Assembly (NCBI GenBank): GCA_964522405.1
Contig: CAZFTR010000006.1
Span: forward strand, 2,430-66,429
Reading direction: 5' to 3'
DNA length: 64,000 bases
Source of the DNA: an uncultured Gammaproteobacteria bacterium
Lineage (GTDB): Bacteria > Patescibacteriota > Patescibacteriia > Magasanikbacterales > UBA922
Shown here: positions 3,208 through 26,431 of the stretch, in pieces
Position numbering within the stretch: the stretch's first letter is position 1
Layout: each line of letters begins with the position of its first letter
Made by a program: the position numbers and the translations under genes
The notes under the pieces: generated by a model
What the model was told of the DNA's origin: nothing
Database searches by the model: none
The model's input: the letters and a program-made list of their open reading frames with translations, nothing else

Positions 3208-6200
3208 ATGCGTGGGTCCACAAGACACACAATTATGCAGATAAAAACGGCAGTCAAAAAACTACTGCCTAGTAAGCTTAAACGTTATCAAAAAATAGCG
3301 CTTTTTGCGTTCGTTTTGCTTGGATCATTATTTTTTATTTCGAGTGTTGCTCAGGCAGGACAAGGTCCGGTTACTGATCTTATCAATGGTTTAATCAGTG
3401 CTGTATCTTGGATGCTAATTGTTACTGCTCGTATTTGTATTGGTTTTACTATATTTTTCCTAAGATTTTTTATAACTTTGGCCAGCTACAATGATTATAT
3501 AAATGCCGATATTGTTAAGCTGGGTTGGATCATGGTTCGTGATGTGGCCAATATGGGATTTGTAGTGGCTATGTTGGTTATTGCTTTTGCTACAATTCTT
3601 GGAATTGAGCAATATGAATTCAAAAAAGGTCTGGTAAAAGTCATACTGGCAGCAGTATTTATCAATTTCAGTAATTTGATTGCTCAGGTTTTTATTGACG
3701 CAGCACATGTTTTTACAATTACATTTTTAAACGCAATTTCAGTTACAGCAGGTGGTAATCTGATCACCATGTTCCAGCTCGATAAGATGCTGGATTTTGC
3801 TTCGAACAAGCCTCCTGGTGAGCTTAAGTTTGAAGTTCTGGGTGGTTCTATAGTTGCCTTTGTTTTTTCATTTATGGCTATGGCAGCTATGGGAGCCTAT
3901 GTTCTCGTTATGATGCTTCGTGTAGTTTTGCTTTGGGCTCTTATAATTTTGTCACCACTTGCTTATATTTTTGCAGTTTTACCGAAGACTGAGAAATATT
4001 CTCAAGAATGGTGGAAAGAATTTGGAGAGCAGGTCATGGTGGCGCCAATCATGGTATTTTTCCTATGGTTGTCTTTTGCAGCGCTCGGAAGCGGACAAGC
4101 GCTTGAACAAATCAATTCTTCCCCAGGTGCAGTACCACTGAAGATAAAAACCACAACTGACTATTCTGTATCTTTGACCAAAATTTCAACTTGGGAAAAC
4201 ATGGCCAATTTCTTGTTGGCTATAACTTTCATGTATATTGGTATTCAAAAAGTTGGTGAATCAGGCGCTTATGGAGGAAAAATTCTGCAAAATACCATGA
4301 GTACAGCCAAGAAGATCGGAGTTATTGCAAGTGGATATGCCACAGGAAGATGGTTGGTTGGCGGCGCAGCAGATGTCGGTAAAAAAGGTGTAAAAGAAGG
4401 TCTTTATCGACTTCCTCTTGTTGGTGGAGAAAAATGGGAAAGATATGCTAAGACTTTTGGTCATGGAATAAAAGGTATGTACATGGGTAAGGGTTTTGAA
4501 ATTACAGAAAAGGGTGAGCAGATACAGGGGGATTTGCGCGAAGAACAGACATTGGCAAAAGCATTAAAGGCTGGTGGTTCAGAAGCACTGGCTGGAGATA
4601 TAGAAAGATTAGAAGCACAGCAATCGGCAGCTAATATCAATTTAGAGGGTCAAAGAACAAACTTAGAAGCACAAGAGGCCGCTGGAGATATGGTGAATGC
4701 AGAGAAGACTAGAGCAGGTATAGCAGAAACAGAACGTGAGCTCGAAACCATAGAAGGTCATCTTGCAACAAATAAGAGGGTTAAGGAAAGAATTGACCGT
4801 GAAGGTTATACAGCGGATGATGTGGATGAAATTGAGCAAAATATCCAAGATCTGCAAAAACAATTAAAAGGTCAAGTTGGTGGTCGAGGCGGAGGAAGAG
4901 TGAGTGGCCTAATAGGTGCTATGGCTCGCGCCAATATCAAATCTCAAAAACGTCTCGCTAAAACTGAAAGACAGGCAGATGAAAGAAAACAATTACTCTG
5001 GAAAAGAACCGGTTCCCAGGCTGGTGGTTATTTGGTTGGAATGGGTCGTGTCGGTGATGTATACAGAGGAAGAGAAGCACAAGATCGTGTGGAGCGTGGC
5101 TGGCTAGCAGCTGAGTCTATGCGCTCCAAGGCCAAAGATGAAGAGTATGAAACCATGGGAAAAATGGAAGTTCTGGCCAAGCCACGTCTTAAATACAATG
5201 TAAATACTGGAGAGATTACTTATGAAGATACCAAAGGAACTGTAGCAGAGAGAATAGCAGAGCATGAAGTTGGACGTGATCAGTATCAAGATGCAATTAA
5301 GAAGCTGCAAGGTGAGGCAAGATTGAAAATTGTTGCTGATTTTGATGCTAATATGTCAAAATCTAATAATATTTCAGCAGAAATAGATAAATTGAAAAAA
5401 GAATTAGAAAATGTTGATAGTCCGGAATTTGCCAATAAAATTAAAAAGAGAATTGAACAGTTGGAGCAAGAGTTATCAGGTGTGGAGAGGGGAAGTGAGG
5501 AAGGACAGAAGTTGACTGATGAAATTAAAGTTTTTAAGGGTGTTAGAGATTCATTAGCTTTTGCTCAAGCTCAAAAAAATATACAGGATTTAGAAGCTCA
5601 AACCACTGCAGACGGTTTTGACCCAAGTTCTGAGAAGGGTCAGGAAATGTTGCGTGAATTGGAGCGTCTAAGAGAAGAATTTAGTGCAGAAGGTGGAGAA
5701 CAGAAAATACAAAAATGGGAAAGTTGGAAAACAGATCTAGACGATGGAATTCTTCATGAAGAGAGAAGAAGAGAGCAGAATAGAGAGATTACTGAACAAA
5801 AAAGAGAAGAATTGAAAACAGTTACCGATGAAGATGAACGAGCTAGGATTATAAAAATGATCGAAAGAGGAGAGGAGCATGACTCCAAATCTGCTTCAAT
5901 AATTACAGATTTAAAATCTCGACGATCATTACTTGATGATCCTGATAATTTAGATTTGGTTGAAAAAGAAATTGATGCTGCTCAAAGAAGATTCACAGAT
6001 TGGGTTCCAGCTGATGCTGAAGAGGCTGAGGCGTATAGAGCAGAGAGAACTGAGAAAGAGGCAGAGTTGGCGAGGTTGAGAGAAGAATACGCTCCTTTTG
6101 CGGAGGATGATGTTAGGGCTAAAGAATTACAAGAACAAATTTCTCAAAAAGAGGCTCAGTTAAATGGTATTGATATTAATAGCGATGAAGGAAGAGCTCG

Positions 6201-9200
6201 TTTGCAAGCGCAACAAGAATTACCTGAGGATTTAAGGTTGTTGGAGTCCATGGACGGATATATGTATGGTTTGCAATATTATAGAGATTGGTCACAAGCT
6301 AGACATGACTCTCAAGATGAAGATTTAACTCAAGATGAGAGAGATCAAGCTGCTCAGAGATTTGCAGATATGGATGCTGTGTTTACTGATCACAATTCAA
6401 ATGAAAGAAAAGCTTTTAATAGAGTGGTTGGCATTCAAAATGGTTTAAGTGATGAAATCAGAGGTTATGAAGATAGAAAAAGAGAGATTGATACTGAGAT
6501 GCAAGGATTGCAAGCTATAATAGATGATCCAAATGAATCAGATGAAAACAAGGCTACTGCTGCCCAAAGCATAGGTACTTTAAATGCTGAAAAAGCAGAT
6601 ATTGATACCAATCATGCAAGAGCAGAACGTAGACATGGTATGATAGCTGATGTGTTTTCTAATGATGATTTAGATACAGCACTAAATCAAACAATCACTG
6701 AAAAGATAGGGCAACTAGATGAAGCCATTGCAAAACAATTAGTTGATTTTGGTCCTGCCGGTAGAGCTGGAACCGAAAGAGAAATAGAAGATTTGCGTGC
6801 TGAACATACTGAACGGACGGCAGCAAAAAGAACTCAAGTCCAAGCTGCTCGCCAAAGCGCCAAAGCAGCAATCAGTGCTCAGATAGATGATCAACAAGCA
6901 GCACTCAAAAAAGTACAACAAGGCGTTGTCAAGACAATGACCGGTGTAACCTATGGTTCATTCTTACAAACCAAGGCAGAAGCGCAAATAGTAAGCGAAA
7001 TTCTTGATGCAGATGAAAAGAGATTGGTAGAAGGTCAACTTCAGAAGGAATATAATCTTGGTGCTTTGGTTGATGCCGCTGCTTCTCAAGACAATCGAGG
7101 AGATTGGAGTAAGAGTGTGCAAGCGGCTCGTGAAGAAGGAAAAGTAATCGCAGCTGAGATCGATAAAAAAAGAAAAATTGAAATTGGAAATTTTGATAGG
7201 CAGCTTAGCGGTTTACAAGATAAAAGAGGAGAACTGCAGAAGCAGGCTGATACTTATGGAGCTGCTTCTAGAATTGAAAAAGCAATGACCGGGCTTGATG
7301 CCAAAGCACAAGAATTGAGAGATCAGAAAGATGCGGTTGATGCTAGCGCTGACTCTGATCAAAATAAAAAGAAAAAGAAAGATGCTCTTGATAAGCAACT
7401 GGCTGCTCTGGCACAAAACAGACAAAAAATGGCTGATGATTTGAAGAAAGCCACAAAAGATCGAGATAAGCTTGCTGGTGTGGAAAAAGGAATGTCAGAC
7501 GATGAAAAGAAGACGAAGAGAGAAGAAGGTGAGGCTGCCATTAAGACACAATTAAATACTACTGATTCAGACATATTTACTCTTTCTTCAACTATAAAAG
7601 ATAAAGAAAAAGCTTTGGAAGAAACTGATACTTACTGGGCAGAATTGATGCGCAGAAAAAAACAAAATGCAAGAAAGGTAAAAGATGAACAAACCAGCCT
7701 CGATAAAAGGGCTAATCGATTGCGTTCTGGAGACACTGGTGCTGCCAATGAGATCATTGAATCTATTGAAACAGCTCTTAGTGAAGAACAAGCTAAACCT
7801 GTCGCAGCCAGAGATGAAGCAAAAATTGACAAACTAAAAGGTGATCTTACTTCCATGCGCAAGATTAAGTCCAAGATTGGAAGGGCAGGTCTGGCTTGGC
7901 GCTATGGTGTGGCCAAAGGTAAGCAGGCTGATGCTACTCGTGGTTATAAATATGCTCATAATCTCTTGCTTTCAGAAGCAGAACAGAGGGCAATTCATGA
8001 TGAAAGAGGACTTGATACACCGAAATCAACTCTTACTGAACTGATTGAGGAATATGGAAAGAGTTTTGGTGAGATGTCAGTTGATAGTTTTGTAGCCAAT
8101 GCCGGACCTATGCTAACTAAAATGCTCAAGAAAAATAAAGCAGGTACTATGACTGAGCAAGATCGAGCAGCTCTCATGGGACTTTTTAAGCGTGGGTTTG
8201 ATCGAGCTTGGATTGATGACGCTATTTATGCCATTATGGACAATGAAGAAGCCAAAGAATTAATTGGTGATGAGTTGGGATGGACAAATTCAAAGTATTC
8301 TGATGAAAAAGTAAGAGATATTCAAATGCTTTTTGCCACTGGAGCAAATGTTGATTTTGTAAAAGACAATGCTGTGGTAACTTCAATTTCAGATGTTCTT
8401 GAAAATGATCATGGAATTAGAAATACAGAAGAAGTGATGAAGATGATGAGCACAGGTGTTTATTTGGATAAATCAGGTGTGGATGTTAGTCAACAAGTAC
8501 ATGATAAAGTTCGTGAATCAATGGCGTCTACCAATACAAAATTCAGTAGTGAACAAGAACAGAATTTTGTAAATTTCTTTAAGCATCTAGTTAAGGGAGA
8601 TGAGCAGGCATTGCTGGACGTGCAATCTCAGAGAAATAAAATTGTTGGTGGTTGGATGAAAGAAATCAGAGCCAGACAATCAGAAATGCAATATTTAGGT
8701 AATCTGCGTCCGGAAGCCATTGCCAACGGCCACTATGAAAACGCCGGTTGGGCTCTGACCCGTGAAGTTGGTGGTGGTGAATCACTCTATGTAGCTCAGG
8801 GTTTGAGAAGCGCTAGAGCTCATGTGATGGGAGATGTGAGAAAATCAGATGTGCGAACTCGTGCTAAATCTCAGACTCATTCTTGGGCTGATCTGGATGA
8901 GAGAAATGGACAAGTAGTAACCCAGATCAGAGAAGGTCAATTTACAGATACTTTCAATGGTATTGATCCTAGAACTTTTAACAGTATTAACCCGCGTGCT
9001 CGTGTGCATATGATGGGTCTTTCCGGTAGTGATAAATACTCTGATTTTCGAGATGGATCTGATGGTTCATTTACAGCAGCTCGAATGACTGATAGTACCG
9101 GCGCGCTTACCAATGCCGGAAAAACTTGGTCTCAAGAACTTTCTCAGGATAGTGTGTATGGTAGTCATTTCAAAAAAGCCAAAACTAGAGATCGCCAACA

Positions 9201-9534
9201 GGAATTGATGTCAGCCGGTATTATGAATAGGCTCTATGCTCGTGAGATTCGTGGAAATACTCATGGATTCCTCATGCTTGCTGCAGAAGCTGCCGGTATG
9301 GATCCAACCCAGGCAGCGCGTGATGGTAAAATTAATTTTAAAATGTATAATCCCGCAGAAGGAAAAGAAATAAGATATCGAGATGTAAACAGATTGATCG
9401 ATGATTTCAATAGAGGAGATTGGGAAATGGATGCCAATGGAAGATTTAGTAGAAGTTCTAAACCTTCATCTCAATTGCAACATTTCACTCCGTCAAGTGG
9501 AAAGGCAGATGAGGATTATTATCTCGATGAATAA
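3208..9534 (+). CDS. Giant membrane protein: N-terminal TrbL/VirB6-like polytopic domain fused to ~1700-aa charged coiled-coil region
   Basis: 2108 aa; signal peptide plus about 6-7 TM helices in the first ~330 aa, then long E/K/R/Q/A-rich heptad-like sequence; genomic context with PrgI-like and VirB4. Confidence 0.55.
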   Translation: MRGSTRHTIMQIKTAVKKLLPSKLKRYQKIALFAFVLLGSLFFISSVAQAGQGPVTDLINGLISAVSWMLIVTARICIGFTIFFLRFFITLASYNDYINADIVKLGWIMVRDVANMGFVVAMLVIAFATILGIEQYEFKKGLVKVILAAVFINFSNLIAQVFIDAAHVFTITFLNAISVTAGGNLITMFQLDKMLDFASNKPPGELKFEVLGGSIVAFVFSFMAMAAMGAYVLVMMLRVVLLWALIILSPLAYIFAVLPKTEKYSQEWWKEFGEQVMVAPIMVFFLWLSFAALGSGQALEQINSSPGAVPLKIKTTTDYSVSLTKISTWENMANFLLAITFMYIGIQKVGESGAYGGKILQNTMSTAKKIGVIASGYATGRWLVGGAADVGKKGVKEGLYRLPLVGGEKWERYAKTFGHGIKGMYMGKGFEITEKGEQIQGDLREEQTLAKALKAGGSEALAGDIERLEAQQSAANINLEGQRTNLEAQEAAGDMVNAEKTRAGIAETERELETIEGHLATNKRVKERIDREGYTADDVDEIEQNIQDLQKQLKGQVGGRGGGRVSGLIGAMARANIKSQKRLAKTERQADERKQLLWKRTGSQAGGYLVGMGRVGDVYRGREAQDRVERGWLAAESMRSKAKDEEYETMGKMEVLAKPRLKYNVNTGEITYEDTKGTVAERIAEHEVGRDQYQDAIKKLQGEARLKIVADFDANMSKSNNISAEIDKLKKELENVDSPEFANKIKKRIEQLEQELSGVERGSEEGQKLTDEIKVFKGVRDSLAFAQAQKNIQDLEAQTTADGFDPSSEKGQEMLRELERLREEFSAEGGEQKIQKWESWKTDLDDGILHEERRREQNREITEQKREELKTVTDEDERARIIKMIERGEEHDSKSASIITDLKSRRSLLDDPDNLDLVEKEIDAAQRRFTDWVPADAEEAEAYRAERTEKEAELARLREEYAPFAEDDVRAKELQEQISQKEAQLNGIDINSDEGRARLQAQQELPEDLRLLESMDGYMYGLQYYRDWSQARHDSQDEDLTQDERDQAAQRFADMDAVFTDHNSNERKAFNRVVGIQNGLSDEIRGYEDRKREIDTEMQGLQAIIDDPNESDENKATAAQSIGTLNAEKADIDTNHARAERRHGMIADVFSNDDLDTALNQTITEKIGQLDEAIAKQLVDFGPAGRAGTEREIEDLRAEHTERTAAKRTQVQAARQSAKAAISAQIDDQQAALKKVQQGVVKTMTGVTYGSFLQTKAEAQIVSEILDADEKRLVEGQLQKEYNLGALVDAAASQDNRGDWSKSVQAAREEGKVIAAEIDKKRKIEIGNFDRQLSGLQDKRGELQKQADTYGAASRIEKAMTGLDAKAQELRDQKDAVDASADSDQNKKKKKDALDKQLAALAQNRQKMADDLKKATKDRDKLAGVEKGMSDDEKKTKREEGEAAIKTQLNTTDSDIFTLSSTIKDKEKALEETDTYWAELMRRKKQNARKVKDEQTSLDKRANRLRSGDTGAANEIIESIETALSEEQAKPVAARDEAKIDKLKGDLTSMRKIKSKIGRAGLAWRYGVAKGKQADATRGYKYAHNLLLSEAEQRAIHDERGLDTPKSTLTELIEEYGKSFGEMSVDSFVANAGPMLTKMLKKNKAGTMTEQDRAALMGLFKRGFDRAWIDDAIYAIMDNEEAKELIGDELGWTNSKYSDEKVRDIQMLFATGANVDFVKDNAVVTSISDVLENDHGIRNTEEVMKMMSTGVYLDKSGVDVSQQVHDKVRESMASTNTKFSSEQEQNFVNFFKHLVKGDEQALLDVQSQRNKIVGGWMKEIRARQSEMQYLGNLRPEAIANGHYENAGWALTREVGGGESLYVAQGLRSARAHVMGDVRKSDVRTRAKSQTHSWADLDERNGQVVTQIREGQFTDTFNGIDPRTFNSINPRARVHMMGLSGSDKYSDFRDGSDGSFTAARMTDSTGALTNAGKTWSQELSQDSVYGSHFKKAKTRDRQQELMSAGIMNRLYAREIRGNTHGFLMLAAEAAGMDPTQAARDGKINFKMYNPAEGKEIRYRDVNRLIDDFNRGDWEMDANGRFSRSSKPSSQLQHFTPSSGKADEDYYLDE

Positions 9535-9543
9535 AAAATAATT

Positions 9544-10737
9544 TTGGCGCTAATTAAAAATATGTTTTCATTGCCAACTATAATAATGCAACTTTATCCG
9601 GGTAAGACTGAAGAAGAGATTCAGGCTATTTCTGATGCTTGTCTTAGGGGTGGAGCAAATTATTATCACCGAACTTGGAAAGAAGTAAAAAAAGAAGATC
9701 TGGGCAAAGAAGAGGTTATTCTTAATTTGATTCGCACTATTCACACTTCTCAGCATTCATATTGGGGCGGGGTTGACGAAATTATGAGATCATTGGAAGA
9801 ATGGTCAGACGGAATAATTATTTTTGAAGGCCTAAACAAAGAACAAAATGAATTTTATCAGAGATTTTATTGTTTTATTGGATTTTTGAATTTTGCTTAT
9901 ATTGAATTTAAGAGAAAATTATTTTTGCTTGAATCTAGATTTCTTGTTTTGGCCTGTATCTGGGAAATTCCGGTCTATGTCAATGTACAACTTTATTTTT
10001 CCAGATATGCCTTTGTGGAAGGTATGAGAAATGATGCTATTCTCATGGCTGATTCTATTGAGAGAAATTGGGCGCCGGTAGGAGAAGAGGGTAGAGCGGA
10101 ATTAACTGTTGAAGAGTGGGTTAGGAAATTCAATGAAAAACCATTTACTAATTTTGGTGGTAGAATTGATGATTATTTTGTAGATAATTTGGAAGTAAAT
10201 AGATTTGATCAAGGAGTTCAAAATGTTTTGAGAAAAATCTTTACTCTTTATTGGGGGCTTAGATCCGGATCTGTCTGGAGAGAAATTTCAGAAGATTTGC
10301 ATATTGCCGGATATGAAAACAAAAAAGTGAGAGAAAATAAGACTGCAGATCAATATTACTTGCAAATGCTCCAAGAAGCTGATAAAGAAGGATTTCTTAT
10401 CTGGCTCACGAGTTATGATCATTTTGTAGATTGGGTACTTGCTGTTGGAAAAAGTGATGAGTTTATGAATCAATTATTTTATATTCTTACTCAGAAAGTT
10501 GATTTGGATGATGTTGAAGAATTAGGTTATTTTGTAGATTTGATGGAGGCTTTGCAAAAAAATGAATGGTCACTTGGTTCTGATTTGGTTTACTATGATG
10601 AGGAAACTTCAGGTTTTAGATGGAATCAAGACATAATTGAAGCTCTAAAAGAAGAGGTTGAGTATGTAAAATTATATGGAGAAAAACCAAGACCCCAAGT
10701 GTTAACTATGCCTGAGAAATTAGATATAAAAGAATAG
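9544..10737 (+). CDS. Hypothetical protein (T4SS-cluster associated)
   Basis: 397 aa ORF, coding-like composition, no recognised motif. Confidence 0.5.
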   Translation: MALIKNMFSLPTIIMQLYPGKTEEEIQAISDACLRGGANYYHRTWKEVKKEDLGKEEVILNLIRTIHTSQHSYWGGVDEIMRSLEEWSDGIIIFEGLNKEQNEFYQRFYCFIGFLNFAYIEFKRKLFLLESRFLVLACIWEIPVYVNVQLYFSRYAFVEGMRNDAILMADSIERNWAPVGEEGRAELTVEEWVRKFNEKPFTNFGGRIDDYFVDNLEVNRFDQGVQNVLRKIFTLYWGLRSGSVWREISEDLHIAGYENKKVRENKTADQYYLQMLQEADKEGFLIWLTSYDHFVDWVLAVGKSDEFMNQLFYILTQKVDLDDVEELGYFVDLMEALQKNEWSLGSDLVYYDEETSGFRWNQDIIEALKEEVEYVKLYGEKPRPQVLTMPEKLDIKE

Positions 10738-10743
10738 AAAATT

Positions 10744-12246
10744 ATGCCTCCAGCTGTTAAAAAACAGACTCAATCAGCCCAAGGTCCTGTTAATCAGGGC
10801 ATTTTGGTTAAAAAGGCAGACGGTAGTACAGTTCGAGTTTCTTTTGATGAATTTAAAAGACTCAGAGAAAACATTTCTAGGAAACAGCCGGCAGAACAGG
10901 TTGTAGAGCCACCGGCTATACCGAAAAAAAGATCTGAAAAAGTAGCAAAAAAAGTAAAAGATTTTGCAGAAAAAGAACAGATATCTTCTATAAAAGGTCA
11001 ACGCATTGCCAGGAAGAGACCTGGTCTTTTGCAAAAAAAGAGAGCAGTAGCTCCGCCGCAACCTGTTCAGAAAAAGATCGAAGATCAGGTTAAAACCAAG
11101 ATGCCTTTGTCTGATCCAAGAATAATTCGTGCTAGAAAGACCAAAACTGTAGTCAGCAAACCAAAAATTTCAGCTCCAAAATTGACAAAAAAAGATTCTC
11201 TACCTCTTTTGCATGAAAAACTTGAAGAGCAGGATCTGATTGAGAGGGATTTATCTGATATTACAACTCATGATCATATTGTTGACGAAGTTGTGCAAGA
11301 GTTTCCCATGTCAATTGCTCCTGAGCTTCAGATGCGCATGAGATCTCTTATTGTTTCTTTTTTAAGAGGAGTTCGAGATAAGCATCAGTTTCATGAATAT
11401 GCTATACAGGCTGCGGGGAGCGGTGGTATTGGTTTGACTGATGAACAAGCTTCTAGGTTGGTACTTGTTATAGAAAAAAATAGAAAAGAGTATGAAAGTG
11501 GAAAAATAGAAAAAACCAAGAGTCAAGCAAAAAAAGCAGTTTTGAGTAGTAGGCTCAAAGCTCGAGGAGTACCAGTTAAACCTGTTAGCGCTTATAAGCC
11601 AGAAACTAAAAAGATTCAAAAACAAAACCCATCAAAAATTCAAAAAGCTCTTGTCAAAGAACCAATAGATGATCTGGCAACCACAACTCCGCTAGTGGAT
11701 AGTTTTATTGATCAGGCAATTGCCAAGAAGCAGGCAGAAAAAGTTAATGTGGTTAAAAAGGAACCAACAATAGAAGAACAAAAGCCTGAAGCTAGAAATA
11801 TCGATTTAGTAGAAGCTGTAAAAAATATACAATCAAGACCGACTACACCGACCATAAAAACCAGTGTTGTCAATCAAAAGAAAACAAATAAGCTGGTACA
11901 TGATGTTAGTCATATAAGAACAGAGCATAAGACTGTCGGTCCTCAGGAAGAAATGTTGAGATATGCCAAAATTGATTTTAATAGATTAGCCAGTGACCCC
12001 GAGCATGCTGCCAGACGTTTGATTGCTAAGTTTAATGGTTGGAAAGAAGAGTCTTTTATGATGTATCTGCAAGCTAGAGCTGCATGGTTTAAAAGTCCTT
12101 TATACAAACAATTTCAAGACTCTGCGTTGAAGGCTATTAATAAACGTTTAACTATAAAAAAAACAGTTGAAGGTTCAAAAGATCTAGGATTGTCTTTGCC
12201 GGAATTTCTAGCTATTCTTGAGGTAAATAAAGCGCTGGCTTTATAA
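10744..12246 (+). CDS. Hypothetical lysine-rich basic protein (T4SS-cluster associated)
   Basis: 500 aa; long K/P/Q-rich basic low-complexity N-terminal two thirds, structured C-terminus. Confidence 0.5.
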   Translation: MPPAVKKQTQSAQGPVNQGILVKKADGSTVRVSFDEFKRLRENISRKQPAEQVVEPPAIPKKRSEKVAKKVKDFAEKEQISSIKGQRIARKRPGLLQKKRAVAPPQPVQKKIEDQVKTKMPLSDPRIIRARKTKTVVSKPKISAPKLTKKDSLPLLHEKLEEQDLIERDLSDITTHDHIVDEVVQEFPMSIAPELQMRMRSLIVSFLRGVRDKHQFHEYAIQAAGSGGIGLTDEQASRLVLVIEKNRKEYESGKIEKTKSQAKKAVLSSRLKARGVPVKPVSAYKPETKKIQKQNPSKIQKALVKEPIDDLATTTPLVDSFIDQAIAKKQAEKVNVVKKEPTIEEQKPEARNIDLVEAVKNIQSRPTTPTIKTSVVNQKKTNKLVHDVSHIRTEHKTVGPQEEMLRYAKIDFNRLASDPEHAARRLIAKFNGWKEESFMMYLQARAAWFKSPLYKQFQDSALKAINKRLTIKKTVEGSKDLGLSLPEFLAILEVNKALAL

Positions 12247-12314: not shown

Positions 12315-12749
12315 ATGCAACAATTTGTTGTTCCACAATTTATCGATGTAGAAGATAAGATTTTTGGTCCTATTACCATACGACAGTTTATTATTTTATT
12401 GTTTGGTGGACTTTTGATTTTTTTGGCCTTTAGATATGGTGATTTATCTTTGTTTATAACTACAGCAGTTATTGTAGGTGGTCTGTCTCTTACATTTGCA
12501 TTTATAAAAGTGAATGGCCAAACTTTTCATTATTTTTTGCTCAATATTACTCAAACAGCCAAAAAACCATCTCTTAGAATTTGGAATAAAAATTATACCA
12601 AAAAAGAATTAGAGTTTTATAGAAAAGAAGCATCTGATTTTGAACCTATTGAACATATTGAAACCAAAGAAGTAAAAAGAGATAGAATTAGAGATTTGGC
12701 TTTACTTGTAAATACAGGAGGTTTTTACCGTCCAGACGAATATAGCTAG
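12315..12749 (+). CDS. PrgI/VirB3-like small membrane protein
   Basis: 144 aa with two adjacent TM helices, located immediately upstream of VirB4, as in Gram-positive-type T4SS; extended -10 (TGTGATATAAT) upstream. Confidence 0.45.
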   Translation: MQQFVVPQFIDVEDKIFGPITIRQFIILLFGGLLIFLAFRYGDLSLFITTAVIVGGLSLTFAFIKVNGQTFHYFLLNITQTAKKPSLRIWNKNYTKKELEFYRKEASDFEPIEHIETKEVKRDRIRDLALLVNTGGFYRPDEYS

Positions 12750-12753
12750 ATAT

Positions 12754-13446
12754 ATGAAGAACAAAAAAAACAAAAAACAAAAAACAAAAAAACCTTCAAC
12801 TCAGGTTCATTTGCCGATTGCAGAGGTAAAAGACGGTACTGTAGTCCTAAAAGACGGAACTTTGCGAGCTGTTTTGCTTGTTTCCAGTATAAATTTTGCT
12901 CTTAAGTCTGAAGATGAACAGAATGCAGTTATATCAGCTTATGTTGGTTTTTTGAATTCTATTGATTTTCCTTTACAGATTGTTGTTCAATCCAGAAAAT
13001 TACAAATACGACCTTATCTTGAACAATTAGATGAGTTGCAGAAAAAACAAAAAGACAATCAGCTTCTAAGAATGCAGATTGCAGATTATCGTTCATTTAT
13101 CAAGGAGTTGGTTGAAATGGGTCAGATCATGACTAAGAGATATTTTGTGGTGGTTCCTTATGATCCACTTTCAAATAGAAAAAAAAGTTTTTGGAATAGA
13201 TTCAAAGAAGTTGTGAAACCGATTATAAGTATTCGTTTAAAAGAGGAGAGATTTCAAGAGAGAAGAGAGGAGCTAGATTTGAGATTAAGACATGTTAAAA
13301 ATGGTTTATCAAGTATTGGTCTCCGAGTAGAGCAGTTGGATACTCAAACATTGATTGAATTATTTTATGCAACTTACAATCCCGATGTAGGGTTTTCAGA
13401 AACATTGGGAGATGTTGAAGATATAAATATTGAGCGCATGCTCTAA
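12754..13446 (+). CDS. virB4: VirB4/TrbE N-terminal domain (separated from ATPase domain by a single in-frame TAA)
   Basis: 230 aa; motif AEVKDGTVVLKDGTLRAVLLVSSINFALKSEDEQ typical of the VirB4 N-terminal domain; same reading frame as the downstream ORF. Confidence 0.55.
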   Translation: MKNKKNKKQKTKKPSTQVHLPIAEVKDGTVVLKDGTLRAVLLVSSINFALKSEDEQNAVISAYVGFLNSIDFPLQIVVQSRKLQIRPYLEQLDELQKKQKDNQLLRMQIADYRSFIKELVEMGQIMTKRYFVVVPYDPLSNRKKSFWNRFKEVVKPIISIRLKEERFQERREELDLRLRHVKNGLSSIGLRVEQLDTQTLIELFYATYNPDVGFSETLGDVEDINIERML

Positions 13447-13455
13447 AGAATAATT

Positions 13456-15336
13456 ATGGCATTTAAACCTGTAAGTTTTGGACAAGAAGCACCTGAAAAA
13501 AGGCCGTCATTTTTGCGTAAGAAAAAAAGCGAAAAAGAGGTTGAAGAAACTCTGGTAAGTTTGGAAGAAGAGCGATTGTACAGAGAGGGGACAGTGGCTA
13601 TTCGTGATTTGATTGCTCCTTCTGCTTTCAAGGTTGAATCTACTTTTATCCAGCTTGGAAATACATTTTTGCGCACTATTTTTGTAGTAACCTATCCGAG
13701 ATATATTGCAGTTGGTTGGAATACTCCTATTTTGAATTTGAATATTACCATGGATATCAGCATGTTTTTTTATCCTGTGAAATCTACTATTATCCTCAAA
13801 CAACTCAAGAAAAAAGTTGGAGCTATAGAAGCACAGATTTCTGCAGATGCAGAAAAAGGTGCTCCTCGAGATCCGATTCGTGAAACAGCTCTGAGAGATA
13901 TTGAACAGCTTAGAGATGATCTTACTCAGGGAGTTGAACATTTTTTCCAGTACGCTTTTTATGTGACCATTTATTCACAGGACAAAGATGAACTAGACAA
14001 GACTACCGAGGACATTGAAAATATTTTTGGTTCAAAATTAATTTATACCAAAAATGTGCTTTTTCAAGCTGAACAAGGTTTTACTTCTACACTTCCACTC
14101 GGCATAGATGAGTTAAGCATTGCTTTTAACATGAATTCTTCTCCGATAGCAGCTTCATTTCCTTTTGTTTCGTCTGAGTTGACTAGTGATAATGGAATTT
14201 TATATGGTATCAATCGACATAATAATAGTTTAATTTTGTTTGACAGATTTAGTTTGCAAAATGGAAATATGGTAGTTTTTGCTACTGCCGGTGCTGGTAA
14301 ATCTTATGCGATTAAGCTCGAAGTGCTTAGAAGTTTGATGTTTGGAACAGATATCATTGTCATAGACCCGGAGATGGAATACTTGCATCTTGCAGAAGCT
14401 GTTGGTGGTACTTATATAAATATTTCTCTAGGTTCAGATAGCAAGGTGAATCCTTTTGATTTGCCGACCAAGCCGATCGGTGGTGAATCTGCCGAAGATG
14501 TTATCCGAAAAGCTATTAGTACAGTCAAGGGTTTGCTCAAAATTATGTTTTCCGGTTTTACTCCTCAGGAAGATTCTATTTTGGATACAGCACTGAAGGA
14601 AACTTATGCCAAAAAAGACATTACACCATCATCAGATTTTTCAAATGCAGAACCTCCAATTATGCAGGATTTATTGGATATTTTGGAGGGTATGGAAGGT
14701 GCTGAAACCATGGTCCTCAAATTACAAAAATACACAGAAGGTACCTTTTCAGGATTATTTAATTCTCCCACCAATGTTGATATGAACAATCAGCTGGTAG
14801 TTTTCAGTGTGCGTGACTTAGAAGATGAGCTTAGGCCATTGGCAATCTATACTTTGATAAATTATATTTGGGCTTTGGTTCGGTCAGAACTAAAGAAAAG
14901 AATACTGGTAATCGATGAGGCTTGGTGGTTGATGAGACATGAAGATAGTGCCAAATTTATTCATGCCTTGGTCAAACGTTGTCGAAAATACTACCTGGGT
15001 GTTACTACTATTACCCAGGACGTTAATGATTTCTTATTATCACCTTATGGACAAGCAATTATTACCAATTCAGCTGCTCAGCTTTTGATGCGTCAATCTC
15101 CAGCATCAGTTGATTTGGTCAAAAAAGTATTTATGTTGACAGAAGGAGAGAAATATCTTTTACTTGAAGGGGTAGAAGGTGAAGGAATCTTTTTTGCTGG
15201 GAACAAACATGCAGCCATAAAAGTAGTTGCTTCTTATACAGAACATCAACTAATCACATCTGACCCTAAACAGCTTTTAGAGATAGAGCGTTCAAAAGCA
15301 GAATTTAATAAGCAATTCAAAGATCAACAAATTTAA
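13456..15336 (+). CDS. virB4: VirB4/TrbE/CagE-family type IV secretion ATPase (C-terminal ATPase portion)
   Basis: 626 aa; Walker A VVFATAGAGKSYAIK, Walker B LVIDEAWW, conserved VirB4 C-terminal motifs. Confidence 0.8.
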   Translation: MAFKPVSFGQEAPEKRPSFLRKKKSEKEVEETLVSLEEERLYREGTVAIRDLIAPSAFKVESTFIQLGNTFLRTIFVVTYPRYIAVGWNTPILNLNITMDISMFFYPVKSTIILKQLKKKVGAIEAQISADAEKGAPRDPIRETALRDIEQLRDDLTQGVEHFFQYAFYVTIYSQDKDELDKTTEDIENIFGSKLIYTKNVLFQAEQGFTSTLPLGIDELSIAFNMNSSPIAASFPFVSSELTSDNGILYGINRHNNSLILFDRFSLQNGNMVVFATAGAGKSYAIKLEVLRSLMFGTDIIVIDPEMEYLHLAEAVGGTYINISLGSDSKVNPFDLPTKPIGGESAEDVIRKAISTVKGLLKIMFSGFTPQEDSILDTALKETYAKKDITPSSDFSNAEPPIMQDLLDILEGMEGAETMVLKLQKYTEGTFSGLFNSPTNVDMNNQLVVFSVRDLEDELRPLAIYTLINYIWALVRSELKKRILVIDEAWWLMRHEDSAKFIHALVKRCRKYYLGVTTITQDVNDFLLSPYGQAIITNSAAQLLMRQSPASVDLVKKVFMLTEGEKYLLLEGVEGEGIFFAGNKHAAIKVVASYTEHQLITSDPKQLLEIERSKAEFNKQFKDQQI

Positions 15337-15346
15337 TTAGAAAAAT

Positions 15347-15940
15347 ATGTTAACCCTCAGACAAAGAGTTTTTGTGGCAATCAGTATTATTATGGCAGTT
15401 GTTCTTGCTATTGTTTTATTATTTCTTTATAGGAAATCACAAGTACCGACTGAAATAGAATATGATGGTGGAGATCAGCCACTTCAGGCAAGTGAAGAAG
15501 TTGTTAGTGAGACTGAGTTTGAAGTGAGCGGGGGTATATCTGTAATATCTCCAAAACAAGCTATTGAACCGGGCGCGCTTTATGCTCAAAATTTAGCGCG
15601 GGTATTTGTTGAGAGATTTGCAACTTATTCCAATCAAAATAAAAATCAACATATAGAAGATGTAAAGCCCTTAGCAACTGACAGAATGATTAGCTGGATT
15701 GATACACAGAAAATTGAGCAGAATACTAAATATAGCGGTGTTACTACTGATGTTATGAGTATTGAAATACAAGAGCAATCAGAAGAGAAAACAATTGTAA
15801 AAATAAATGCTCAGCAGGTTGTCCGTTCTCAAGTTGATGGACAAGTTGGTCTGTCAGAAGAAATTATTCAGAAAAAAGCCAGAGTTGAACTTATAAAACA
15901 AGCTGGAGAGTGGAAAGTAGATGGATTTTTTTGGGAATAG
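15347..15940 (+). CDS. Membrane-anchored hypothetical protein (single N-terminal TM; possible VirB8-like role)
   Basis: 197 aa, N-terminal TM then soluble domain; position after VirB4. Confidence 0.35.
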   Translation: MLTLRQRVFVAISIIMAVVLAIVLLFLYRKSQVPTEIEYDGGDQPLQASEEVVSETEFEVSGGISVISPKQAIEPGALYAQNLARVFVERFATYSNQNKNQHIEDVKPLATDRMISWIDTQKIEQNTKYSGVTTDVMSIEIQEQSEEKTIVKINAQQVVRSQVDGQVGLSEEIIQKKARVELIKQAGEWKVDGFFWE

Positions 15941-16753: not shown

Positions 16754-16840
16754 GGAGAGATGCCTGAGTGGTTGAAAGGGGCACCCTGCTAAGGTGTTGT
16801 ATCCTAACGGGTACCGAGGGTTCGAATCCCTCTCTCTCCG
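16754..16840 (+). tRNA. tRNA-Ser (anticodon GCU)
   Basis: Acceptor GGAGAGA/TCTCTCC, anticodon loop CTGCTAA, long variable arm, T-loop TTCGAAT. Confidence 0.8.
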
Positions 16841-16896
16841 CCGGGCTTTGCCCAGATGTTTTGCACATTGAATAGTTGAATTTTTGTTAAAATGGT

Positions 16897-16986
16897 GGAG
16901 GGATGGCAGAGCGGTTGAATGCGACGGTCTTGAAAACCGTTGTCCGTGAAAGCGGACCAAGAGTTCGAATCTCTTTCCCTCCGCCA
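16897..16986 (+). tRNA. tRNA-Ser (anticodon UGA), CCA encoded
   Basis: Acceptor GGAGGGA/TCCCTCC, anticodon loop CTTGAAA, long variable arm, T-loop TTCGAAT, 3' GCCA. Confidence 0.8.
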
Positions 16987-25982: not shown

Positions 25983-26166
25983 TTTAGTTTTTCTTAATGT
26001 TTTTCGTTGACAATAATTAGTAATGTTATATACTTTAAATATTGGTAAGTTTGAAGCTCAGTAATCGAACTTTGTATATAAAAATCCCCAAAAGGGGATT
26101 TTTATATACTTTGAAACAATTAAGATTTTTTTAATGGTGTTTATTATAAAATATTATCGGTGGAAA

Positions 26167-26240
26167 GGGCGGAGGCTGGCTGGGCCAAATTCAAACTTAC
26201 CATTTTGAATATTGGAGTTCGATTCTCCCTCCGTCCACCA
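26167..26240 (+). tRNA. tRNA-like element with aberrant arms (anticodon region TAC in an 8-nt loop; possibly tRNA-Val(UAC)-derived or pseudo-tRNA), CCA encoded
   Basis: Acceptor GGGCGGA/TCCGTCC, canonical T-loop GGAGTTCGATTCTCC, 3' ACCA; but 3-nt D-loop and 8-nt anticodon loop cttaccat; followed by terminator. Confidence 0.4.
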
Positions 26241-26370
26241 CTGAATTTGACAAAAAAAATTATAAATGATAATTTAATACTTATATGAATCACCAATGTA
26301 TTATTAAAACTGCTAAGAAGACAAAGAAGATCTCGCTCGCGGGTTAGTGTTTTGTTGTATACATTTACAT

Positions 26371-26396
26371 GTCCCGCAGAAAGCGGGATTTTTTAT
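26371..26396 (+). terminator. Intrinsic terminator (tcccgc-agaaa-gcggga + T7)
   Basis: Seen directly downstream of tRNA-like element. Confidence 0.5.
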
Positions 26397-26431
26397 TGTA
26401 GAAGTGAATTTAATAAAGGATGTGAGCACGA

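What the first reader, a model, noticed from the sequence alone, without database searches (positions are those of the whole stretch)
3208..9534. 2108-aa protein: VirB6-like membrane domain fused to a ~1700-residue highly charged coiled coil
After the ~330-aa polytopic domain, the protein is almost entirely E/K/R/Q/D/A-rich sequence with coiled-coil character and few prolines or glycines until a mixed C-terminal domain of ~500 aa. If extended, 1700 residues of coiled coil would span more than 200 nm. That is a plausible molecular tether or spacer between an episymbiont and its host cell surface, or a ruler for a secretion conduit.
Basis: inference. Interest (0 to 1): 0.6.

Follow-up and report, generated by a model that had tools for sequence, protein, structure and literature searches.

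The report
Giant extended VirB6 secretion-channel protein
This 2108-residue gene encodes the membrane-channel subunit (VirB6) of the chromosomal type IV secretion system of an ultra-small Patescibacteria (Magasanikbacteria-like) bacterium. It carries the longest known example of a family-specific tail: a fast-evolving helical spacer ending in a conserved globular domain of unknown fold. That tail most likely sits inside the cell rather than reaching out to a host.

Summary
The ORF at 3208-9534 (+) is real and encodes 2108 aa. Its first ~350 aa form a VirB6/TrbL-type membrane domain: 15 of 40 relatives hit Pfam TrbL, and the top five PDB fold hits are R388 TrwI/VirB6. It opens a tightly packed operon: two orphan soluble proteins, PrgI/VirB3, TrsD, VirB4, a VirB8-like protein and ComF. 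This synteny is conserved in about 60 Magasanikbacteria-type genomes.

The "1700-residue coiled coil" is overstated. The charged region is about 1150-1200 aa (roughly 420-1600). It is about 82% helical in the 437-1199 stretch that AlphaFold2 modelled, but broken into more than 20 helices of at most 62 aa. Its heptad signal is real but weaker than in the SMC arms of the same window.

The tail has four parts: a flexible basic juxtamembrane stretch, a conserved module (537-715), a spacer variable in length and sequence (127-886 aa across 59 relatives, ours the longest), and a confidently folded, conserved ~500-aa C-terminal domain with no match in Pfam, PDB or BFVD.

Three indirect lines place the tail in the cytoplasm: family-wide positive-inside charge pattern, natural gene-fission variants lacking export signals, and a co-varying signal-less neighbour. 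This argues against the tether idea but does not exclude it. It is a new variant of the known "extended VirB6" class.

The parts
3208..3357 (+). Residues 1-50: basic N-terminus (net +9 in the first 28 aa) followed by a signal-peptide-like hydrophobic helix (29-48) ending in AQA
   Evidence: Hydropathy. An AxA-type motif is conserved in homologues (alignment A2). Across the family the N-terminus is net +5.8.
3358..4257 (+). Residues 51-350: VirB6/TrbL-like polytopic membrane domain
   Evidence: AlphaFold2 pLDDT exceeds 90 over roughly residues 70-300. The top five Foldseek PDB hits are TrwI/VirB6 of R388. 15 of 40 homologues match PF04610 TrbL. The protein itself scores only E = 3.6. Invariant residues include N115, F118, A149, N153, S155, R238 and P250.
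4258..4815 (+). Residues 351-536: Lys/Gly-rich juxtamembrane segment, predicted flexible
   Evidence: pLDDT is mostly below 50. Family-level net charge is +6.8 for residues 350-420.
4816..5352 (+). Residues 537-715: conserved tail module 'MID1' (LLWKRTGS...GG motif, short beta hairpin at 661-672)
   Evidence: It aligns in nearly all long family members at 30-53% identity to close homologues. It is also present in partial homologues P0004 and P0007.
5353..7857 (+). Residues 716-1550: charged, segmented alpha-helical spacer, hypervariable in length and sequence
   Evidence: AlphaFold2 gives confident helices of 18-62 aa over 710-1180. Heptad signal is above shuffles but below the SMC arms. No repeats were found. 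Residues 716-1150 give no BLAST hit to any homologue. Spacer length ranges from 127 to 886 aa in 59 relatives, and ours is the maximum.
7858..9531 (+). Residues 1551-2108: conserved C-terminal domain (CTD). It has an alpha-helical subdomain and an alpha/beta subdomain carrying the motif FLGNLR...GHxENAGWAL.
   Evidence: AlphaFold2 pLDDT 84, pTM 0.80. 72 homologues were found, about 40 of them in 1250-1972-aa VirB6 proteins. Invariant polar residues are R1600, E1614, D1670, D1671, N1832, R1834, H1842, E1844, K1879, H1891 and R1930. No match was found in Pfam, PDB sequences, PDB folds, BFVD or PHROGs.
9544..10737 (+). Orphan soluble protein 'unk397', encoded 9 nt downstream; likely partner of the CTD
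   Evidence: No Pfam, NCBIfam or PHROGs hit. A homologue lies directly after the VirB6 gene in essentially all loci. It is directly detectable only where the CTD is present, so the two co-vary. Of the 76 ORFs of 280-560 aa between the VirB6 and unk500 genes (mostly this family), one has a strongly hydrophobic N-terminus and the rest none (median N-terminal hydropathy 0.54).
10744..12246 (+). Orphan, very basic Lys-rich soluble protein 'unk500', conserved in the locus
   Evidence: Homologues are present in about 60 loci. No signal peptide or TM segment. No family hit.
12315..12749 (+). PrgI / VirB3-like two-TM protein
   Evidence: PF12666 PrgI, E = 1.3e-8. Two TM segments.
12754..13446 (+). TrsD-like protein (resembles the N-terminal part of VirB4)
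   Evidence: NF041427 TrsD, E = 2.5e-8, and VirB4 N-terminal matches. TrsD is described as typical of Patescibacteria T4SS in PMC12102498.
13456..15336 (+). VirB4 ATPase
   Evidence: NF045971 conju_CD1110, E = 5e-104, above the curated cut-off. PF19044 TraG P-loop.
15347..15940 (+). Candidate VirB8/PrgL-like protein (N-terminal TM helix plus NTF2-like domain)
   Evidence: Strong TM segment at residues 8-26. Weak NTF2_YvbJ hit, E = 0.009. Conserved in synteny. The assignment is an inference.

Best explanation
The gene encodes an 'extended VirB6', the polytopic channel and platform subunit of the chromosomal, relaxase-less MPF-FATA-like type IV secretion system of a Magasanikbacteria-type (class ABY1) Patescibacterium.

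Shown:
- Residues 51-350 are a VirB6-fold membrane domain.
- The gene heads an operon with two orphan soluble proteins, VirB3/PrgI, TrsD, VirB4 and a VirB8-like protein.
- The about 1750-aa tail is modular. It has a basic flexible juxtamembrane stretch, a conserved module (537-715), a charged segmented alpha-helical spacer that evolves very fast in length and sequence, and a conserved folded ~500-aa C-terminal domain with many invariant polar residues.

Inferred:
- After signal-peptide cleavage the protein adopts the classical VirB6 topology: N-terminus outside, an odd number of crossings, C-terminus inside. The tail is therefore cytoplasmic.
- Each protomer of the presumed VirB6 pentamer hangs a helical arm below the channel. 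The arm presents the C-terminal domain, together with its co-varying soluble partner (the 397-aa neighbour) and perhaps the basic 500-aa protein, near the VirB4/TrsD ATPase.
- I propose this works as a built-in docking or substrate-recruitment (possibly enzymatic) module, in a system that has no coupling protein or relaxase in the locus.
- The spacer is a tolerant helical linker, not a precise ruler.
For: Identity as VirB6:
- N-terminal homologues carry PF04610/PF19590.
- The best PDB fold hits are TrwI/VirB6 chains 8rt9_F, 8rtd_L and 7o3v_J/F/G, with probability 0.95-1.0.
- The operon contains PrgI, TrsD and VirB4.
- The same synteny occurs in about 60 GTDB genomes.
- The system type is described in PMC12102498.

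Modular tail:
- Domain mapping on about 60 relatives.
- AlphaFold2 models.
- Per-region identities.

Cytoplasmic placement:
1. Across 68 relatives, the loops alternate K/R-rich (134-143, 258-275, post-350 net +6.8) and acidic or K/R-poor (49-57, 91-106, 186-209, 297-330). K+R on the proposed inside is about 21, against about 6 outside. The alternative topology gives about 10 against about 15.
2. Six species have a natural fission in which CTD subdomains 2-3 form a separate 615-757-aa ORF with its own ATG and extra flanking sequence. None of 21 stand-alone CTD proteins has an N-terminal hydrophobic segment.
3. The gene immediately downstream encodes a family without signal peptide or TM. It is detectable only where the CTD is detectable, while VirB4 stays 73-84% identical.
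4. Reporter-fusion topologies of A. tumefaciens, Brucella and H. pylori VirB6 place the C-terminus in the cytoplasm (as cited in PMC7648143).
Against: - No topology predictor, experiment or multimer model was available, so the placement rests on indirect arguments.
- A plain count of continuous AlphaFold2 helices gives 7 crossings from a cytoplasmic N-terminus, which would put the tail outside. The C-in model requires that helix 58-90 does not cross the membrane.
- In the assembled R388 machine only two VirB6 helices are in the membrane and the rest form a periplasmic dome (PMC11294453). Insertion topology may therefore not describe the working state.
- Other extended VirB6 proteins have extracytoplasmic C-terminal domains (F TraG; Anaplasma VirB6-3/-4, PMC7648143).
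- The tail is replaced by unrelated tails in sister lineages whose VirB4 is 76-78% identical. That pattern is more typical of host-facing parts than of core cytoplasmic machinery.
- The docking or recruitment function is pure inference. The C-terminal domain has no recognisable fold or family.
Confidence: 0.5

Rival explanations
1. Extracellular stalk or tether. The tail is exported. Five copies form a helical stalk through the wall and S-layer, standing in for the VirB5/pilus stalk that monoderm systems lack. The C-terminal domain at the tip contacts the host cell, and spacer length is tuned to the envelope or gap distance.
For: - Extended VirB6 proteins with extracytoplasmic or surface-exposed C-terminal domains exist (F TraG, Anaplasma VirB6-3/-4; PMC7648143).
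- In R388 most of VirB6 sits in a periplasmic dome under a VirB5 pentamer (PMC9259494, PMC11294453).
- Counting AlphaFold2 helices gives an odd number of crossings from a cytoplasmic N-terminus.
- Spacer length is highly variable, and whole tails are swapped between lineages with near-identical VirB4.
- No VirB2-like pilin, VirB5 or adhesin gene was seen in the locus.
Against: - A strongly basic segment (net +6.8 across 68 relatives) follows the last hydrophobic helix, and the loop charges fit C-in much better.
- Fission versions of the C-terminal domain, and the co-varying neighbour, have no export signal.
- The helices are short (at most 62 aa) and the heptad signal is only moderate. A 170-200 nm rod is not supported.
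- No cell-wall anchoring or binding domain was found.
Confidence: 0.28
2. The C-terminal domain is cargo, either an effector or an enzyme. It is made in the cytoplasm tethered to, or in fission lineages free beside, the channel. It is then delivered through the T4SS or proteolytically released, and the 397-aa neighbour acts as its chaperone, adaptor or immunity protein.
For: - Release of extended VirB6 C-termini has been proposed for Rickettsiales (PMC7648143).
- Stand-alone signal-less CTD proteins exist directly downstream of virB6.
- Many invariant polar residues (H, E, D, K, R, N) suggest an active or binding site.
- The tail and the next gene co-vary as a cassette.
Against: - The domain is conserved (26-56% identity) rather than polymorphic within its class, and it matches no toxin or effector family.
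- The C-terminus is acidic, which is not typical of T4SS substrate signals (established knowledge).
- Being covalently fused to a channel subunit by a spacer of about 1200 aa is an odd way to load cargo.
- No cleavage motif was identified.
Confidence: 0.12
3. The central region is functionless filler: disordered, compositionally biased expansion tolerated between two functional domains. Alternatively, the ORF is an assembly chimera.
For: - Residues 716-1150 cannot be aligned even to the closest homologues.
- Residues 376-710 have low pLDDT.
- A related scaffold has an assembly gap exactly in this region.
Against: - Helices over 710-1180 have pLDDT of about 70-96 in nearly all 10-residue blocks.
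- Heptad signal is about 7 sd above shuffles.
- A charged, proline-poor composition is conserved in 54 relatives.
- There are no repeats.
- The identical protein occurs on an independent contig, and collinear homologues of 1846-1972 aa exist.
Confidence: 0.08

Closest known systems
Patescibacteria chromosomal T4SS (MPF-FATA-related; VirB4, TrsD, PrgI/VirB3, VirB6), described by Quinonero-Coronel et al. 2025 (PMC12102498) and shown to be essential in Southlakia epibionticum (Wang et al. 2023, PMC10633639)
   Same: - It has the same component set and order (VirB6, PrgI, TrsD, VirB4).
- It is chromosomal and has no relaxase or coupling protein in the locus.
- Association with comF is noted for class ABY1.
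- VirB8-like genes are found mainly in ABY1.
   Different: - In the passages found by term searches of those two papers (no hits for 'coiled' or 'extension' in PMC12102498, none for 'VirB6' in PMC10633639), there is no description of a VirB6 of 1300-2100 aa, its helical spacer, the conserved C-terminal domain, its fission variants, or the two conserved orphan genes between virB6 and prgI.
- More distant Patescibacteria VirB6 homologues found here are mostly 530-735 aa.
'Extended VirB6' proteins of Rickettsiales (Anaplasma/Ehrlichia VirB6-3/-4, Rickettsia RvhB6)
   Same: - A TrbL/VirB6 polytopic domain carries a very large hydrophilic C-terminal extension whose length varies between strains or species.
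- The organisms are obligately host-associated with reduced genomes.
   Different: - Those extensions are built of tandem repeats and are reported to be surface exposed in diderm cells (PMC7648143).
- Here there are no repeats.
- Here the tail ends in a conserved globular domain.
- The cell is monoderm, and indirect evidence favours a cytoplasmic tail.
F-plasmid TraG (VirB6-like N-terminal domain plus C-terminal domain for mating-pair stabilisation and entry exclusion)
   Same: - A VirB6-type membrane domain is fused to a large functional C-terminal domain that works with a specific partner protein.
   Different: - No sequence match to TraG families was found.
- The TraG C-terminal domain is periplasmic.
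- TraG has no charged helical spacer of about 1200 aa.
R388 TrwI/VirB6 (solved structures 7O3V, 8RT9, 8RTD)
   Same: - It is the best structural match for residues of about 50-350.
- By analogy, a pentameric central platform of the T4SS is expected.
   Different: - TrwI is about 340 aa (my recollection; the cited papers report a model of residues 1-272) and has no tail.
- Sequence identity is 12-15%, and the Foldseek E-values are weak (9e-3 to 8e-2) because the query was 1200 aa long.
Long coiled-coil proteins (SMC arms, streptococcal M protein)
   Same: - The composition is charged and helix-rich, with a partial heptad pattern.
   Different: - The helices are interrupted every 20-60 residues.
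- Hydrophobic occupancy of the a/d positions is about 0.41, against roughly 0.55-0.6 in the SMC arms of the same window.

Membership tests
TrbL/VirB6 family (Pfam PF04610 / PF19590) | Significant match of the protein itself to the family HMM | tested here: not met
   The protein itself scores E = 3.6 and 7.7 bits, against a cut-off of 25.9. There is no hit at E <= 0.01.
TrbL/VirB6 family (Pfam PF04610 / PF19590) | Homology to proteins that do match the family HMM (transitive membership) | tested here: met
   39 homologues of residues 1-420 were found, with E down to 1e-127. Several carry precomputed PF19590 or PF04610. 15 of 40 aligned members hit PF04610, the best at 9.7e-7.
TrbL/VirB6 family (Pfam PF04610 / PF19590) | Polytopic domain of at least 5 hydrophobic helices with the VirB6 fold | tested here: met
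   Hydropathy. AlphaFold2 pLDDT above 90. Foldseek ranks five TrwI/VirB6 chains first, with probability 0.95-1.0 and target TM-score 0.32-0.48.
TrbL/VirB6 family (Pfam PF04610 / PF19590) | Encoded in a T4SS locus next to VirB3 and VirB4 | tested here: met
   PrgI, TrsD and VirB4 lie 2.8-3.9 kb downstream on the same strand. This arrangement is conserved in about 60 genomes.
TrbL/VirB6 family (Pfam PF04610 / PF19590) | Periplasmic N-terminus, odd number of TM segments and cytoplasmic C-terminus (A. tumefaciens reporter-fusion topology) | tested here: inconclusive
   The family-wide positive-inside pattern fits this topology if helix 58-90 does not cross the membrane. A plain helix count gives the opposite result. 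No experiment or dedicated predictor was available.
Extended VirB6 subtype (Alvarez-Martinez & Christie; PMC12857230) | VirB6 hydrophobic domain plus one or more large central or C-proximal hydrophilic domains | tested here: met
   A hydrophilic tail of about 1750 aa follows residue 350.
Rickettsiales-type extended VirB6 (VirB6-3/-4) | Extension built of tandem repeats | tested here: not met
   Self-BLAST finds no internal repeats. TRF finds only trivial short arrays.
Rickettsiales-type extended VirB6 (VirB6-3/-4) | Surface exposure of the C-terminal extension | not testable with these tools
   This needs protease shaving or antibody accessibility. Indirect sequence evidence points the other way.
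F-type TraG (TraG_N plus C-terminal domain) | Match to TraG family models | tested here: not met
   Pfam and NCBIfam gave no TraG-type hit for the protein or its parts.
Canonical long two-stranded coiled coil | Uninterrupted heptad register over hundreds of residues | tested here: not met
   There are 21 helices of at most 62 aa in residues 437-1199. Hydrophobic a/d occupancy is about 0.41, against roughly 0.55-0.6 in the SMC arms. The signal exceeds shuffles (z about 7) but is patchy. No dedicated predictor (DeepCoil, MARCOIL) was available.
Polymorphic toxin with downstream immunity gene | Known toxin domain at the C-terminus, hypervariable among close relatives, with a cognate small immunity gene | tested here: not met
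   The CTD has no toxin or any other family match. It is conserved at 26-56% identity across species. The downstream gene belongs to one family present in essentially all loci. Tail type and neighbour do co-vary at deeper divergence.

The most novel reading that the evidence does not exclude
The tail is extracellular. Five VirB6 tails assemble into a helical stalk that replaces the VirB5/VirB2 stalk and pilus in this monoderm episymbiont. The orphan C-terminal domain acts as a host-contacting tip, and the hypervariable spacer sets the reach of the secretion conduit to the host envelope. This would be a one-polypeptide channel-plus-needle not described for any T4SS.
Probability: 0.2. Interest if true: 0.8.

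Novelty: new variant of a known kind. Interest (0 to 1): 0.45.

Why it matters
The Patescibacteria T4SS is the only T4SS known to be essential for its owner's growth (PMC10633639). What it transports, and how, is unknown. It usually lacks a relaxase and a locus-encoded coupling protein (PMC12102498).

A recent review states that the role of the extra domains of extended VirB6 proteins "is not yet known" (PMC12857230).

This family gives concrete handles for experiments:
- a conserved, confidently folded orphan domain with a defined set of invariant polar residues
- a co-varying soluble partner
- natural fission variants
- a sevenfold natural range of spacer length

Together these make the question [quoted passage not shown] directly testable.

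If the tail is cytoplasmic, it may be the missing substrate-recruitment module. If it is external, it would be a new kind of T4SS stalk.

Tried and rejected
- **Family searches on the protein:** Pfam, NCBIfam and PHROGs on the whole protein, the spacer and the CTD gave no significant hits.
- **PDB sequence searches:** N-terminal and CTD profiles against PDB sequences gave only compositional coiled-coil hits or nothing.
- **Fold search of the CTD:** the best hit against PDB had E = 0.23, and the best against BFVD had E = 0.12. Neither is credible.
- **Word-indexed homology search for the CTD:** it found a single relative, even when queried with a profile. The exhaustive HMMER search was needed to reveal the family.
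- **First locus scan:** The search for related loci failed with the broad alignment A1 and worked with the closer set A2.
- **'VirB4 is split into two ORFs':** rejected. The 230-aa ORF is a TrsD homologue, a normal separate gene in these systems (PMC12102498).
- **'The homologue P0040 is a shorter, split version':** rejected. Its scaffold has a 10-N gap inside the gene.
- **'The spacer is a repeat array':** rejected.
- **'Short-tailed VirB6 proteins of sister lineages carry a diverged CTD':** rejected by profile-profile comparison, probability 3%.
- **'The downstream gene is a polymorphic immunity gene':** not supported, because it is a single family across loci.

Full report
**Observation**

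The window carries an uninterrupted ORF at exactly 3208..9534 (+) encoding 2108 residues. It lies in a low-GC chromosome segment (about 0.35-0.40) full of housekeeping genes: RecO, AsnRS, SMC, ClpP, PheST, DnaE and TsaD.

The protein starts with a basic N-terminus and a signal-peptide-like helix (29-48...VAQA). A block of hydrophobic helices follows, up to about residue 350.

From about residue 420 to about 1600, E/K/R/D/Q make up 37-53% of residues. The last ~500 residues have a mixed composition.

The charged region is about 1150-1200 residues.

The ORF is not an artefact. The identical protein is called on an independent 12.1-kb Logan contig with the same neighbours. Collinear homologues of 1846 and 1972 aa also exist.

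**What the N-terminus is**

The protein itself misses Pfam TrbL/VirB6 (E = 3.6). Residues 1-420 nevertheless have 39 clear homologues in Patescibacteria (Magasanikbacteria, Komeilibacteria, Liptonbacteria, Parcubacteria). Several of these carry PF19590 or PF04610, and 15 of 40 aligned members hit PF04610.

An AlphaFold2 model of residues 1-1200 is confident (pLDDT above 90) over the membrane domain. Its five best PDB matches are all TrwI/VirB6 chains of the R388 T4SS stalk, with probability 0.95-1.0.

The gene is followed at spacings of 4-68 nt by:
- two orphan soluble proteins (397 and 500 aa);
- PrgI/VirB3;
- TrsD;
- VirB4, above the curated cut-off for the CD1110 family;
- a TM-plus-NTF2-like protein, a VirB8/PrgL candidate;
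- ComF.

This is the chromosomal, relaxase-less, MPF-FATA-related T4SS of Patescibacteria described in PMC12102498. That paper also notes comF linkage and VirB8 homologues in class ABY1. The homologous system is essential in Southlakia epibionticum (PMC10633639).

A scan of one genome per GTDB species found more than 550 relatives. In the 80 best loci, mostly Magasanikbacteria, the order AsnRS - virB6 - orphan - orphan - prgI - trsD - virB4 - virB8-like - comF recurs. VirB4 of the closest genome is 84% identical.

**Anatomy of the tail**

An exhaustive HMMER search with residues 1551-2108 found 72 proteins. About 40 of them are 1250-1972-aa proteins with a VirB6 N-terminus and this domain at the C-terminus. 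Ours is the longest.

Mapping conserved blocks on 59 relatives gives five parts:
1. The VirB6 domain.
2. A Lys/Gly-rich, low-confidence juxtamembrane stretch (351-536).
3. A conserved module (537-715).
4. A spacer.
5. The C-terminal domain (CTD).

The distance from the conserved module to the CTD core ranges from 127 to 886 residues, with a median of 371. Ours is the maximum. This distance explains total protein length (r = 0.92).

Against the closest homologues, the VirB6 domain and the CTD are 50-62% and 26-56% identical. Residues 716-1150 give no BLAST alignment at all. The composition of the spacer is nevertheless conserved in 54 relatives: median 43% E/K/R/D/Q, 0.8% Pro, net acidic.

**Coiled coil or not**

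AlphaFold2 predicts 82% helix over residues 437-1199, split into 21 helices of 11-62 residues; the longest is about 9 nm. Confidence is low for residues 376-710. Nearly all 10-residue blocks of 710-1180 have pLDDT of about 70-96.

A heptad-register score is about 7 sd above shuffled sequence, but it is patchy. It is also clearly weaker than in the SMC arms encoded in the same window, which score about 10 sd. Hydrophobic occupancy of the a/d positions is about 0.41, against roughly 0.55-0.6 in the SMC arms.

There are no internal repeats at the protein or DNA level.

The region is therefore neither disordered low complexity nor one long coiled coil. The most economical reading is a segmented helical rod or a string of helical bundles. 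High single-chain confidence usually means that helices pack on each other, but this step is inference because I could not inspect coordinates.

Fully stretched as one continuous alpha-helix, about 1150 residues would span about 170 nm. Folded back on itself, the reach would be several-fold less.

**The C-terminal domain**

With a 17-sequence alignment, AlphaFold2 gives pLDDT 84 and pTM 0.80. The model has an alpha-helical half and an alpha/beta half.

Invariant residues include R1600, E1614, D1670, D1671, N1832, R1834, H1842, E1844, K1879, H1891 and R1930. The signature FLGNLR...GHxENAGWAL is also conserved. This pattern suggests a catalytic or ligand-binding site.

Nothing matched in Pfam, PHROGs, PDB sequences, PDB folds or BFVD. 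The more sensitive fold libraries were unavailable.

**Which side of the membrane**

Three indirect lines favour a cytoplasmic tail.

1. *Loop charges.* In an alignment of 68 relatives the loops alternate in charge. K/R-rich regions are the N-terminus (+5.8), loops 134-143 and 258-275, and residues 350-420 (+6.8). K/R-poor or acidic loops are 49-57, 91-106, 186-209 and the length-variable 297-330. This fits N-out (after signal-peptide cleavage) / five crossings / C-in, the topology measured for A. tumefaciens VirB6. K+R is then about 21 inside and about 6 outside. The alternative gives about 10 and about 15.
2. *Natural gene fission.* In six species the CTD is split. The VirB6 protein keeps subdomain 1, and a separate 615-757-aa ORF carries the rest, with its own ATG and extra flanking sequence. 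This is not a frameshift artefact. None of 21 stand-alone CTD proteins has an N-terminal hydrophobic segment.
3. *A co-varying neighbour.* The next gene encodes a family that lacks a signal peptide or TM segment. Of the 76 ORFs of 280-560 aa between the VirB6 and unk500 genes, which are mostly this family, one has a strongly hydrophobic N-terminus. This gene is directly detectable only in loci where the CTD is detectable. VirB4 stays 73-84% identical throughout, so the tail and this neighbour form a co-diverging pair.

Four points argue the other way.
- A literal count of continuous model helices gives seven crossings, which would put the tail outside.
- In the assembled R388 machine only two VirB6 helices are membrane-embedded (PMC11294453).
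- Other extended VirB6 proteins expose their C-termini outside the cytoplasm (PMC7648143).
- Sister lineages with near-identical VirB4 carry unrelated tails, a pattern more typical of host-facing parts.

I put the cytoplasmic placement at roughly two in three.

**Mechanism proposed**

*Shown:*
- It is an extended VirB6 subunit at the head of a conserved T4SS operon.
- Its tail is modular and ends in a conserved orphan domain.
- The spacer varies in length and sequence.

*Inferred:*
- Each protomer of the presumed pentamer hangs a helical arm in the cytoplasm.
- The arm holds the C-terminal domain and its 397-aa partner, and perhaps the very basic 500-aa protein, beside the VirB4/TrsD ATPases.
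- It serves as a built-in docking or substrate-recruitment module, possibly enzymatic, in a system with no coupling protein or relaxase in the locus.

*Rivals:*
- an external stalk or tether (about 0.28);
- a tethered or released effector domain with a chaperone or immunity neighbour (about 0.12);
- functionless filler or an artefact (about 0.08 or less).

**Comparison with known systems, and novelty**

'Extended VirB6' proteins are a recognised class. A 2025 review states that the role of their extra domains is unknown (PMC12857230).

This family differs from the Rickettsiales examples: it has no repeats, it ends in a conserved globular domain, and the cell is monoderm. It also differs from F TraG, to which it has no homology.

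Term searches in the two Patescibacteria T4SS papers returned no passage describing this architecture. Full-text searches combining VirB6, coiled-coil and CPR or Magasanikbacteria terms found nothing either.

I class it as a new variant of a known kind, of moderate interest.

Noticed in passing
window 26432-28069 (+), within 26001-28000: A 545-aa aspartokinase-like ORF (AA_kinase plus ACT domains) lies in a stretch of GC 0.53, in a genome of about 0.35 GC. Long antisense ORFs overlap it. It looks like a recent horizontal acquisition. It is not an rRNA, since Rfam gave no hit there.
   Followed up: partly
window 12754-13446 and 13456-15336 (+): What looks like a VirB4 split into 230-aa and 626-aa ORFs is a TrsD homologue followed by VirB4. 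This is the normal arrangement in Patescibacteria T4SS, and it is conserved in about 60 related loci.
   Followed up: yes
window 15347-15940 (+): A 197-aa protein has one N-terminal TM helix and a weak NTF2-like hit. It is conserved directly after virB4 and is a likely VirB8/PrgL-like component. PMC12102498 reports that VirB8 homologues are almost confined to class ABY1.
   Followed up: partly
window 9544-10737 and 10744-12246 (+): Two orphan soluble proteins sit between virB6 and prgI and are conserved across Magasanikbacteria loci. The 397-aa gene is sometimes duplicated in tandem. The 500-aa protein is extremely Lys-rich and basic, with a conserved C-terminal part, and could be a nucleic-acid binder. 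Neither matches any family.
   Followed up: partly
L019 715-6529; L062 9923-15536; L070 9857-15288; also L052, L061, L068: In six species the VirB6 tail is naturally split after the first subdomain of the C-terminal domain. In L068 it is split into three ORFs. The rest is encoded as a separate signal-less protein.
   Followed up: yes
about 35 of the loci L009-L082 (e.g. L011, L056, L058, L076): A second class of Magasanikbacteria VirB6 proteins (926-1392 aa) has a 500-950-aa tail with no detectable similarity to the conserved module or the C-terminal domain found here. VirB4 in these genomes is still 76-78% identical. Whole tails appear to have been exchanged or to have diverged beyond recognition.
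   Followed up: partly
L002 1170-1179: The only relative found by the word-indexed search sits on a JGI scaffold with a 10-N gap exactly inside the spacer region. This suggests the region is hard to assemble and that long forms are under-represented in short-contig collections.
   Followed up: yes
window 16754-16842 and 16897-16986 (+): Two tRNA-Ser genes (anticodons GCT and TGA) lie directly after comF, at the end of the T4SS-comF gene string.
   Followed up: no
window 32423-33901 (+) and 53992-56271 (-): There are two further large ORFs without a clear family. One is 492 aa with no Pfam hit. The other is 759 aa with only a weak beta-propeller match.
   Followed up: no
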